From Escherichia coli (GTDB taxonomy: Bacteria; Pseudomonadota; Gammaproteobacteria; Enterobacterales; Enterobacteriaceae), in the NCBI RefSeq assembly GCF_046105845.1, contig NZ_CP151004.1: a DNA stretch of 64,000 nucleotides. The stretch is one strand, 5' to 3'. This document shows, piece after piece, positions 61,590-61,673 of the stretch. Made by a program: the position numbers and the translations under genes. Positions within the stretch are counted from its first letter, which is position 1. Every line of letters begins with the position of its first letter. The notes under the pieces were generated by a model, which ran no database searches, was not told the origin of the DNA, and saw only the letters and a program-made list of their open reading frames with translations.

Positions 61590-61673
61590 ATGAAAACTTT
61601 TCTCGATAAAGTTCTCATCATTCTTAAGGCGCTAATCGCGCTGCTGGAACTGATCCGTCAGTTTATTGAATAA
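61590..61673 (+). CDS. Small hydrophobic peptide (27 aa), candidate type I toxin of the DinQ/ShoB class
   Basis: MKTFLDKVLIILKALIALLELIRQFIE; SD aagggag 6 nt upstream of the ATG, sequestered in the palindrome ctcccttaagggag; in-frame stop 39 nt upstream; the motif ALIALLELIR matches what I recall of E. coli DinQ. Confidence 0.55.
   Translation: MKTFLDKVLIILKALIALLELIRQFIE

What the first reader, a model, noticed from the sequence alone, without database searches (positions are those of the whole stretch)
61590..61673. 27-codon hydrophobic ORF resembling DinQ/ShoB-class type I toxins between selU and ybbP
A short ORF (MKTFLDKVLIILKALIALLELIRQFIE) has a near-ideal SD (aagggag, 6-nt spacer) and a strong stem-loop right after its stop. 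The peptide is a single predicted amphipathic/transmembrane helix, and the stretch ALIALLELIR matches what I remember of the E. coli DinQ toxin. The SD lies inside a perfect palindrome (ctcccttaagggag, 61571-61584), as in type I toxin mRNAs whose translation is kept off by leader structure. Nothing like this sits at this position in K-12 as I recall it.
Basis: partly seen in the sequence, partly recalled or inferred. Interest (0 to 1): 0.8.

Follow-up and report, generated by a model that had tools for sequence, protein, structure and literature searches.

The report
DinQ-like toxin with AgrB-like antitoxin RNA
The short ORF is real and is the toxin gene of a second, DinQ-like type I toxin-antitoxin module with its own antisense RNA gene; this family is already published and this protein is already annotated in more than a thousand E. 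coli genomes, so it is a correct call of something known.

Summary
The 27-codon ORF at 61590-61673 is real. Its peptide passes NCBI's curated DinQ model (37.2 bits, cut-off 30). It passes Rfam's AgrB model (51.4 bits, threshold 40) and has a near-consensus promoter. The unit from the small-RNA terminator to the toxin terminator (61240-61720) aligns with the K-12 agrA-dinQ unit.

I collected 40 related loci from seven genera of Enterobacterales and aligned 20 of them. Across these:
- the short ORF, its ribosome-binding site and the hairpin that masks that site are conserved;
- the leader helices covary;
- each small RNA pairs best with its own mRNA.

The locus is a paralogue of dinQ, not dinQ itself. 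It lies between selU and ybbP, not between arsR and gor, and it has no LexA box. It occurs in 1326 of 5426 complete E. coli genomes, whereas canonical dinQ is in 5422. The RefSeq name "damage-inducible" is therefore probably wrong here, and the 51-aa RefSeq gene model is probably too long.

The dinQ-like (dql) family was defined in 2016, and a plasmid member was validated experimentally in 2025.

The parts
61240..61329 (-). AgrB-like small RNA gene, the predicted antitoxin. Its 5' end pairs with the toxin mRNA leader.
   Evidence: Rfam RF02891 AgrB matches 61328..61240 on the minus strand at 51.4 bits (gathering score 40), over model positions 1-84 of 84. The 5' end at G61329 is inferred: it lies 7 nt downstream of the -10 hexamer (and direct reading). 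AgrB-like RNAs sit at the same relative position in related loci.
61336..61364 (-). Promoter of the small RNA: TTGAAT, 17-nt spacer, TATAAT.
   Evidence: This is the only sigma-70-like site found in 61150-61900, matching 10 of 12 positions. Its -35 hexamer overlaps the -35 region of the divergent toxin promoter.
61240..61273 (.). Symmetric terminator hairpin with A and T runs on both sides. It ends the small RNA and probably also selU.
   Evidence: The terminator scan found 14 pairs on both strands. It matches the terminator part of the AgrB model.
61242..61267 (+). Left copy of the 26-nt direct repeat that bounds the 478-bp unit.
   Evidence: 25 of 26 positions are identical to 61720-61745. 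Strain AR_0077 has a single copy and no module.
61381..61393 (+). Predicted toxin promoter -10 (TACAAT, 61381-61386) and transcription start (G61393).
   Evidence: In 15 family loci a -10 hexamer (TATAAT, TACAAT, TATCAT, TATAGT, TATGAT or TATACT) is followed by 6 nt and then G. In K-12 this G is the mapped +1 (PMC5066626 numbering checked on L002). The K-12 LexA box that overlaps this -10 is absent here. The window start site is inferred, not measured.
61393..61720 (+). Predicted toxin mRNA of about 328 nt, with a 197-nt leader.
   Evidence: It is homologous end to end with the 331-nt K-12 dinQ mRNA. The 3' motif GAAACGTAGCTAAGG plus the terminator is conserved in all related loci examined.
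61405..61412 (+). Leader element 1 (ACTGCCTC). It pairs with 61497-61504 in the full-length transcript.
   Evidence: The minimum-free-energy fold of 61393-61720 closes the 5' end onto 61497-61515, like stem S1 of K-12 dinQ (model from PMC5066626). Inferred.
61490..61515 (+). Target site of the small RNA, which includes leader element 2 (GGAGAGAGG).
   Evidence: The pairing is 14 Watson-Crick pairs from position 1 of the Rfam-defined RNA (5' end at 61328), 15 pairs if transcription starts at G61329, or 18 pairs with G-U from 61328. Predicted duplex energy is -39.3 kcal/mol. The cognate mRNA ranks first for this small RNA. The position, about 100 nt before the start codon, is the same as in all 11 loci compared.
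61565..61574 (+). Leader element 3 (TCTTTCTCCC). It pairs either with element 2 or with the ribosome-binding site.
   Evidence: The 2:3 helix (alignment columns 135-140 with 214-219) has 3 of 5 pairs changed on both sides, and 95% of cells are paired. The window carries A-U where K-12 carries U-A.
61570..61583 (+). Hairpin that masks the ribosome-binding site (CTCCCT-TA-AGGGAG). The site itself, AAGGGAG, is at 61577-61583.
   Evidence: The palindrome is perfect. A hairpin of at least 5 pairs occurs at this place in 20 of 21 family loci with different stem sequences. The predicted probability that the site is unpaired is 0.01 in the full-length mRNA.
61590..61673 (+). Toxin ORF of 27 aa: MKTFLDKVLIILKALIALLELIRQFIE.
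   Evidence: NCBIfam NF041472 toxin_DinQ scores 37.2 bits against a cut-off of 30. The exact sequence is WP_409024056.1. It is conserved as a 26-30-aa ORF in 40 loci. Substitutions are biased to the third codon position. The hydrophobic core VLIILKALIALLELI has a mean hydropathy of 2.75.
61690..61718 (+). Toxin mRNA terminator stem-loop.
   Evidence: It forms an 11-12-bp stem in all folds. It is homologous to the K-12 dinQ terminator and to those of the other loci, with varying stem sequences.
61720..61745 (+). Right copy of the 26-nt direct repeat: a degenerate copy of the small-RNA terminator.
   Evidence: It is found only at the Escherichia selU-ybbP locus, not in the Serratia, Photorhabdus, Citrobacter or Pantoea loci.

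Best explanation
This is a chromosomal DinQ-like (dql) type I toxin-antitoxin module, a paralogue of dinQ-agrB.

The plus strand gives an mRNA of about 328 nt, starting near G61393. It encodes a 27-aa membrane peptide that is toxic if overproduced. The minus strand gives a constitutively transcribed AgrB-like small RNA of about 90 nt.

Proposed mechanism, by analogy with dinQ:
1. In the full-length mRNA the 5' end pairs with the region around 61497-61515. The ribosome-binding site then sits in the CTCCCT/AGGGAG hairpin, so the mRNA is not translated.
2. Removal of the first 45-50 nt frees element 2 (GGAGAGAGG) to pair with element 3 (TCTTTCTCC). This opens the ribosome-binding site.
3. The small RNA binds element 2 and its flank. 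The hairpin re-forms, and the duplex is probably cut by RNase III.

Unlike dinQ, the toxin promoter has no LexA box, so the locus is probably not induced by the SOS response.

Shown here: homology of every part, conservation of the ORF as a coding sequence, covariation of the leader helices, and co-variation between small RNA and target. Inferred: transcription, 5' processing, toxicity, repression by the small RNA, and independence from SOS.
For: Homology of the parts:
- The peptide passes the curated DinQ model.
- An AgrB-like RNA passes Rfam's gathering score, with a promoter matching 10 of 12 positions and a terminator.
- The 61200-61760 stretch aligns with K-12 agrA-dinQ at 76% mean column identity.

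The ORF is a coding sequence:
- Forty related loci in Escherichia, Serratia, Photorhabdus, Xenorhabdus, Citrobacter, Kosakonia and Pantoea keep a 26-30-aa ORF behind a GGAG-type ribosome-binding site 5-7 nt before the start codon. The upstream in-frame extension is not conserved.
- Differences from the Serratia and Photorhabdus orthologues fall mostly at the third codon position (for example 9, 4 and 1 differences at positions 3, 1 and 2). Amino-acid changes are conservative.

The small RNA belongs to the module:
- AgrB-like RNAs lie divergently 258-294 nt upstream of the ORF in ten of the related loci scanned.
- In an 11 x 11 matrix of duplex energies, the cognate mRNA is the best partner for every small RNA. 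The cognate mean is -51.7 kcal/mol and the non-cognate mean -32.6.

The leader structure is conserved:
- 94.1% of cells are paired, against 77.8% in shuffles and 34-57% when partners are slid. Sixteen of 24 pairs change on both sides, and 0 of 500 shuffles reach the observed covariation score.
- The hairpin over the ribosome-binding site occurs in 20 of 21 loci with compensatory stems.
- The predicted unpaired probability of the site is 0.01 (full length), 0.15 (5'-truncated) and 0.01 (truncated with the small-RNA site blocked). The validated K-12 dinQ gives the same order: 0.08, 0.22 and 0.02.

Experimental precedent in the family:
- For dinQ: toxicity, +44 processing, AgrB repression and RNase III cleavage (PMC3567139, PMC5066626).
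- For the plasmid member DqlB/AgrB: toxicity, rescue, and compensatory mutations in the pairing region (PMC12365149).
Against: - There are no expression or toxicity data for this locus.
- Its small RNA-target duplex is the weakest of the 11 cognate pairs: -39.3 kcal/mol, with 14 Watson-Crick pairs and then a stretch rich in G-U pairs with one mismatch. The other pairs have about 30 nearly perfect pairs. The first 30 nt of K-12 AgrA, which does not repress dinQ, give -36.0 with dinQ in the same test.
- The Serratia oryzae small RNA binds the window mRNA marginally better than the window's own small RNA does (-39.6 against -39.3).
- The toxin promoter has a good -10 but a poor -35, and the consensus scan did not pick it up.
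- About 200 of the 1326 carrier genomes have a 108-bp deletion that removes the target site, the ribosome-binding site and the first codons. At least one genome has lost the whole unit. Most E. coli have an Rhs element here instead. The locus is therefore dispensable and may be decaying in some lineages.
- The predicted opening of the ribosome-binding site in the truncated mRNA is modest (0.15).
Confidence: 0.85

Rival explanations
1. The locus is a decaying relic of a DinQ-like module. The sequence is homologous, but the toxin is no longer expressed at harmful levels and the small RNA no longer needs to control it. The locus persists by descent until it is deleted.
For: - It has the weakest cognate duplex of the 11 loci compared.
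- The toxin promoter has a weak -35.
- About 200 genomes carry a 108-bp deletion that inactivates the toxin.
- One genome shows precise loss of the 478-bp unit.
- Most E. coli carry an Rhs element at this site instead.
Against: - The ORF, ribosome-binding site, hairpin, small-RNA promoter and both terminators are all intact.
- 1124 genomes cover at least 80% of the module, and most module-carrying genomes (1165 of 1326) are at least 99% identical.
- The syntenic copy in another species, Escherichia sp. E1V33, differs in the peptide by one conservative change (I to V), while the surrounding region is 96.5% identical.
- In the common deletion variant the toxin start is lost and the small RNA is kept. 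That is the pattern expected if the toxin is still harmful.
Confidence: 0.1
2. It is true dinQ, SOS-induced as the RefSeq product name 'damage-inducible type I toxin DinQ' implies, merely relocated in this strain.
For: The peptide passes NCBI's DinQ 'equivalog' model, and PGAP names it dinQ in every carrier genome examined.
Against: - Canonical dinQ is present in 5422 of 5426 genomes, so carriers have both genes.
- The locus lies between selU and ybbP, not between arsR and gor.
- No CTGT-N8-ACAG site with up to 1 mismatch exists in 61179-61890, whereas every true dinQ orthologue tested has one at -208 or -209.
- The peptide is only 63% identical to DinQ and groups with Serratia and Photorhabdus sequences at 78-81%.
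Confidence: 0.04
3. It is a chance ORF in an intergenic region rich in repeats (REP elements and terminators), with an accidental ribosome-binding-site-like motif.
For: The intergenic region does contain REP-type repeats at about 61770-61880 that match thousands of places per search. Short hydrophobic ORFs arise easily.
Against: A curated family model is passed. The ORF is conserved across seven genera in a coding pattern. A partner small RNA co-varies with it.
Confidence: 0.01

Closest known systems
dinQ-agrA/agrB of E. coli K-12 (arsR-gor intergenic region; PMC3567139, PMC5066626)
   Same: - A 27-aa single-helix peptide with the identical core ALIALLELIR.
- A divergent, non-overlapping AgrB-type small RNA.
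- A leader of about 195 nt with the same -10/+1 geometry.
- A target site about 100 nt before the start codon.
- Leader elements 1-4, including the hairpin over the ribosome-binding site.
- A similar terminator.
   Different: - It is at another chromosomal place (selU-ybbP).
- It has one small-RNA gene, not two.
- It has no LexA box.
- The peptide has three more residues at the N-terminus and three fewer at the C-terminus, and is 63% identical.
- The start codon is ATG, not GTG.
- The small RNA-target duplex is shorter and weaker.
dql (dinQ-like) genes of Enterobacteriaceae, groups dqlA and dqlB (Kristiansen et al. 2016, PMC5066626; small RNAs predicted in T1TAdb, PMC8594479)
   Same: The paper describes exactly this kind of locus. 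It lists homologues of dinQ on chromosomes and plasmids that are often unannotated or annotated with an over-long N-terminus. Some occur together with dinQ in one strain, and they share its leader elements.
   Different: I could not see the paper's figure or supplement, so I cannot say whether this particular locus is one of its 14 aligned dql genes, or which group it falls in. By NCBIfam it is not DqlB (23.2 bits, cut-off 35).
DqlB-AgrB of plasmid pOXA-48 (PMC12365149, 2025)
   Same: Same family. Toxicity, rescue by the small RNA, and dependence on base pairing were shown by compensatory mutations. This is the best experimental proxy for how the window locus should work.
   Different: That module is plasmid-borne, acts as an addiction module, and has 35 nt of complementarity. 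The window module is chromosomal. Plasmid relatives are only 60-80% identical at nucleotide level.
tisB-istR1, shoB-ohsC and zorO-orzO
   Same: The layout is the same: a small hydrophobic toxin, a long structured leader activated by 5' processing, and a divergent trans-encoded small RNA that binds far upstream of the ribosome-binding site.
   Different: There is no sequence relationship to the peptide. The only NCBIfam matches are DinQ and DqlB. The Rfam OrzO-P match (24 bits against 60) covers only the terminator.

Membership tests
DinQ/AgrB type I toxin-antitoxin family (dinQ plus dql) | Small (26-30 aa) hydrophobic single-helix peptide with the DinQ signature | tested here: met
   NF041472 scores 37.2 bits against a cut-off of 30. 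Fifteen columns are invariant with K-12 DinQ, including ALIALLELIR. The hydrophobic core has a mean hydropathy of 2.75 over 15 residues.
DinQ/AgrB type I toxin-antitoxin family (dinQ plus dql) | Divergently transcribed, non-overlapping AgrB-type small RNA upstream of the toxin gene | tested here: met
   Rfam RF02891 scores 51.4 bits against 40, full length, on the minus strand at 61328..61240, 262 nt from the start codon. It has its own promoter and terminator.
DinQ/AgrB type I toxin-antitoxin family (dinQ plus dql) | The 5' end of the small RNA is complementary to the toxin leader about 100 nt before the start codon | tested here: met
   14-15 Watson-Crick pairs, 18 with G-U, and -39.3 kcal/mol. 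The cognate mRNA ranks first for this small RNA. It is the weakest of the 11 cognate pairs, whose mean is -51.7.
DinQ/AgrB type I toxin-antitoxin family (dinQ plus dql) | Leader with mutually exclusive pairings (1:2, 2:3, 3:4), the last of which masks the ribosome-binding site | tested here: met
   Tested in silico only. Leader covariation was reached by 0 of 500 shuffles. The hairpin is present in 20 of 21 loci. Predicted accessibility of the site changes in the same order as in K-12 dinQ.
DinQ/AgrB type I toxin-antitoxin family (dinQ plus dql) | Peptide toxic on overproduction; repression by the small RNA; activation by 5' processing; RNase III cleavage | not testable with these tools
   Shown for dinQ (PMC3567139, PMC5066626) and for DqlB (PMC12365149), but not for this locus.
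dinQ proper (orthologue of b4613) | LexA box over the promoter (SOS induction) | tested here: not met
   No CTGT-N8-ACAG site with up to 1 mismatch in 61179-61890. One is present at -208/-209 in the K-12, E. albertii, E. whittamii, E1V33 and Citrobacter youngae dinQ loci and absent from the other 16 loci tested, which include Kosakonia and Pantoea loci whose peptides are DinQ-type.
dinQ proper (orthologue of b4613) | Location between arsR and gor, with tandem agrA and agrB | tested here: not met
   The locus lies between selU (mnmH) and ybbP and has one small-RNA gene. Canonical dinQ is present separately in 5422 of 5426 genomes.
DqlB (NCBIfam NF041473) | Score at or above the curated cut-off | tested here: not met
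   23.2 bits against a cut-off of 35, and only residues 13-26 match.
ShoB, ZorO, TisB, Ldr, Hok | Sequence match of the peptide or partner RNA to the family model | tested here: not met
   No NCBIfam match other than DinQ and DqlB at E up to 10. The Rfam OrzO-P match (24.1 bits against 60) covers the terminator only.

The most novel reading that the evidence does not exclude
This paralogue may be a DinQ-like module that has been uncoupled from the SOS response and is held in check by an unusually short, G-U-rich antisense duplex. It would then respond to a signal other than DNA damage. It might also be open to cross-talk with the canonical AgrA/AgrB RNAs present in the same cell. In the comparison (first 36 nt of each small RNA against the whole predicted mRNA), AgrA gave -40.1 and AgrB -34.6 kcal/mol with the window mRNA, against -46.0 for the cognate pair. 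The repeated loss of the locus (a 108-bp deletion, a precise 478-bp excision, and replacement by an Rhs element) would then reflect a real fitness cost of leaky toxin expression.
Probability: 0.3. Interest if true: 0.35.

Novelty: already known. Interest (0 to 1): 0.2.

Why it matters
This mainly serves as a check on the scan: reading raw sequence correctly picked out a 27-codon toxin gene.

The practical points are small:
- RefSeq's product name ("damage-inducible") and its 51-aa gene model are probably wrong for this paralogue.
- About a quarter of complete E. coli genomes carry a second DinQ-type toxin. Studies of persistence or SOS-induced membrane depolarisation done in K-12 do not see it.
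- No chromosomal dql locus was found to have been tested experimentally in the literature searched.

Tried and rejected
- tblastn of the 27-aa peptide against the plasmid collection found nothing. The likely reasons are the short query and the low-complexity filter. A nucleotide search in 'distant' mode did find about 1660 plasmids with relatives at 60-80% identity.
- The pairwise alignment with K-12 mis-aligned the promoter region and suggested a 7-nt deletion over the LexA box. The 20-sequence alignment and an anchored comparison corrected this. The -10 and +1 are at the homologous position, and the LexA half-sites are simply not there.
- Duplex folding of the whole small RNA against the whole mRNA gave uninformative long pairings, because the small-RNA gene is an inverted relative of the leader. 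I restricted the test to the first 30-36 nt of each small RNA.
- The supplement of Kristiansen et al. 2016 is not held, so I could not check whether this locus is among their 14 dql genes.
- Full-text searches for 'dqlA' and for the peptide sequence found nothing relevant.
- Variation within E. coli is too low (most copies at least 99% identical) to test coding constraint, so I used loci from other genera.
- Strain BS-01 (L005) has a locus of odd composition next to a frameshifted Rhs gene. I did not interpret it.

Full report
**The observation**

The window has allS (59089-60015) and selU/mnmH (60084-61178) on the plus strand and ybbP on the minus strand from 61891. The intergenic region is 712 bp.

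- The ORF at 61590-61673 reads MKTFLDKVLIILKALIALLELIRQFIE.
- AAGGGAG at 61577-61583 is followed by a 6-nt spacer.
- A strong stem-loop follows the stop codon at 61690-61718.
- K-12 has the rhsD element at this place and nothing that aligns with the module.

**What it is**

- The peptide's only NCBIfam matches are DinQ (NF041472, 37.2 bits, curated cut-off 30) and DqlB (23.2 bits, below its cut-off of 35).
- Rfam finds a full-length AgrB match on the opposite strand at 61328..61240 (51.4 bits, gathering score 40).
- This RNA gene has the only good sigma-70 promoter of the region: TTGAAT, 17 nt, TATAAT at 61364..61336. It ends in a symmetric terminator at 61240-61273.
- The stretch 61200-61760 aligns with the K-12 agrA-dinQ unit at 76% mean column identity. 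The alignment covers the small RNA, the leader, the ORF and the terminator.

The locus is therefore a complete module of the DinQ/AgrB kind.

**It is a paralogue, not dinQ**

- The canonical dinQ transcript region is present in 5422 of 5426 complete E. coli genomes.
- The selU-ybbP module is present in 1326 of them. It is always chromosomal, in one copy (two places in a few genomes), and at least 95% identical.
- PGAP annotates it as "dinQ: damage-inducible type I toxin DinQ", using a 51-aa model that starts at ATG 61518.
- The exact 27-aa and 51-aa sequences both have NCBI accessions: WP_409024056.1 and WP_425365091.1.

**Literature**

- Kristiansen et al. 2016 (PMC5066626) defined "dql" (dinQ-like) genes, in groups dqlA and dqlB. 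They lie on chromosomes and plasmids of Enterobacteriaceae, are often annotated with an over-long N-terminus, and sometimes occur together with dinQ.
- T1TAdb added predicted small RNAs for them.
- DqlB/AgrB of pOXA-48 was validated in 2025. Toxicity, rescue by the small RNA and compensatory pairing mutations were all shown.
- I found nothing on chromosomal dqlA-type loci beyond the 2016 paper.

**Conservation of the ORF**

One scan of species-representative genomes gave 40 loci. They come from Escherichia, Serratia, Photorhabdus, Xenorhabdus, Citrobacter, Kosakonia and Pantoea.

- All keep a 26-30-aa ORF behind a GGAG-type ribosome-binding site 5-7 nt before ATG or GTG.
- The in-frame stretch upstream of that start is unrelated between loci, or is interrupted by stop codons. 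The 51-aa RefSeq model is therefore most likely an over-extension.
- The window peptide is closest to Escherichia sp. E1V33 (one change, I to V). That copy lies in the same selU-ybbP position, in a region 96.5% identical over 4.9 kb. Next closest are Photorhabdus khanii (81%) and two Serratia species (78%).
- Against these, nucleotide differences fall mainly at the third codon position (for example 9, 4 and 1 at positions 3, 1 and 2). Replacements are conservative: I/V, L/I, E/D.

The ORF is conserved as a coding sequence, not only as nucleotides.

**The small RNA and its target**

- AgrB-like RNAs pass Rfam's threshold at the same divergent position in ten of the 20 related loci scanned. They lie 258-294 nt from the start codon.
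- I computed duplex energies between the first 30 nt of each small RNA and the -140..-60 part of each leader, for 11 loci.
- Every small RNA binds its own mRNA best. The cognate mean is -51.7 kcal/mol and the non-cognate mean -32.6. This is co-variation between the two genes.
- The window pair is the weakest cognate pair (-39.3). It has 14 Watson-Crick pairs from the 5' end of the Rfam-defined RNA (15 if the RNA starts at G61329), then UUUC:GGAG, one A-A mismatch, and a further G-U-rich stretch.
- Most of the other loci have about 30 nearly perfect pairs.
- In the same test the first 30 nt of K-12 AgrA, which does not repress dinQ, give -36.0 with dinQ.

The window pairing is plausible but not clearly sufficient.

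**The leader**

- In a 20-locus alignment of the 200 nt before the start codon, RNAalifold recovers the published stem-loops SL2 and SL4 and the 2:3 helix.
- On that structure 94.1% of cells are paired, against 77.8% in shuffles and 34-57% when partners are slid.
- Sixteen of 24 pairs change on both sides, and 0 of 500 shuffles reach the observed covariation score.
- Caveat: the structure was predicted from the same alignment.
- The window keeps each pair of the 2:3 helix, with A-U where K-12 has U-A.
- The hairpin over the ribosome-binding site exists in 20 of 21 loci with different stems: CTCCCT/AGGGAG, TCTCCAC/GTGGAGA, CTCCAT/ATGGAG, TGCTCC/GGAGCA, CTCCAG/CTGGAG and TCCCTT/AAGGGA.

Partition-function folding gives this mean probability that the ribosome-binding site is unpaired:

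| mRNA form | Window locus | K-12 dinQ (validated) |
|---|---|---|
| Full length | 0.01 | 0.08 |
| 5'-truncated | 0.15 | 0.22 |
| 5'-truncated, small-RNA site blocked | 0.01 | 0.02 |

The order is the same in both loci, which fits the same switch. The effect size is modest, and this is prediction only.

**Promoter and SOS**

- Anchoring 15 loci on the K-12 +1 shows a -10 hexamer, then 6 nt, then G in all of them.
- The window has TACAAT (61381-61386) and G61393, which gives a 197-nt leader against 194 nt in K-12.
- The -35 is poor, and it overlaps the small RNA's -35 on the other strand.
- A LexA box (CTGT-N8-ACAG, at most 1 mismatch) is present at -208/-209 in the dinQ loci of Escherichia and Citrobacter youngae. 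It is absent from the window and from the other loci tested.

SOS control is thus a feature of that Escherichia/Citrobacter dinQ lineage. The name "damage-inducible" is probably not justified for this paralogue.

**Population states of the locus**

1. An intact module: 1124 genomes cover at least 80% of it.
2. A 108-bp deletion (about 61502-61609) in about 200 genomes. It lies between the imperfect repeats CAGTCCTCATC and AAGTTCTCATC. It removes the target site, the ribosome-binding site and the first six or seven codons, but keeps the small RNA.
3. A precise loss of the 478-bp unit in strain AR_0077. It leaves one copy of the 26-nt direct repeat that otherwise flanks the unit at 61242-61267 and 61720-61745.
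4. An Rhs element in place of the module in most genomes, including K-12 and O157:H7.

The flanking repeat is specific to the Escherichia locus. Relatives at 60-80% nucleotide identity occur on about 1660 plasmids, most of them conjugative.

**Verdict**

The thing is a DinQ-like type I toxin-antitoxin module of a published family, and it is already annotated in RefSeq. It is not novel.

The points worth keeping are:
- the missing LexA box;
- the weak antisense pairing;
- the over-long gene model;
- the presence/absence polymorphism.

Function at this locus remains inferred from homology, covariation and experiments on relatives.

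Noticed in passing
window 4431-5383: There is a tandem duplication with a 504-bp period: 300-nt copies at 4431-4730 and 4935-5234, 98% identical. Each copy carries a sok antitoxin RNA match (4676-4832 and 5180-5336, minus strand, 84 and 80 bits against a threshold of 59). Each is followed by a perfect LexA box, CTGTTTATTTATACAG, at 4864 and 5368. These look like two hok/sok-type type I toxin loci with SOS boxes side by side.
   Followed up: partly
window 61770-61882: REP/BIME-type repeats lie between the module and ybbP. 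They match the Rfam families ES036/CssrF (61811-61853, 40.3 bits against 37.6) and, below threshold, naRNA4. They make the intergenic query hit 11-50 places per E. coli genome. They are not part of the module.
   Followed up: partly
L003 (E. coli Z226-7) and about 200 other genomes; window 61502-61609: A recurrent or inherited 108-bp deletion lies between two imperfect 11-nt repeats. It removes the toxin's start and the small-RNA target but keeps the small-RNA gene. PGAP then annotates no gene there.
   Followed up: yes
L046 (E. coli AR_0077): An 'empty site': selU, one copy of the 26-nt repeat, REP elements, then ybbP. It is 100% identical to the sequence predicted for recombination between the two direct repeats.
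   Followed up: yes
L008 1530-1668 (Photorhabdus khanii): A group II intron domain (RF02003, 103 bits) lies about 500 bp from the AgrB-like RNA of the closest non-Escherichia relative. C4 antisense RNAs (a phage P1/P7 type) lie near three other Photorhabdus loci (L014, L015, L022). This hints that some family members sit in mobile or prophage DNA.
   Followed up: no
L005 (E. coli BS-01), about 1500-2140: Downstream of selU there is a diverged AgrB-like 3' part and promoter region. It is followed by C-rich sequence of odd composition and a frameshifted Rhs (DUF6531) pseudogene. This could be an assembly artefact or a junction where the Rhs element cut into the module.
   Followed up: no
window 48252-48318 (minus strand): A match to the enterobacterial small RNA STnc480, at 84.9 bits against a threshold of 72.
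   Followed up: no
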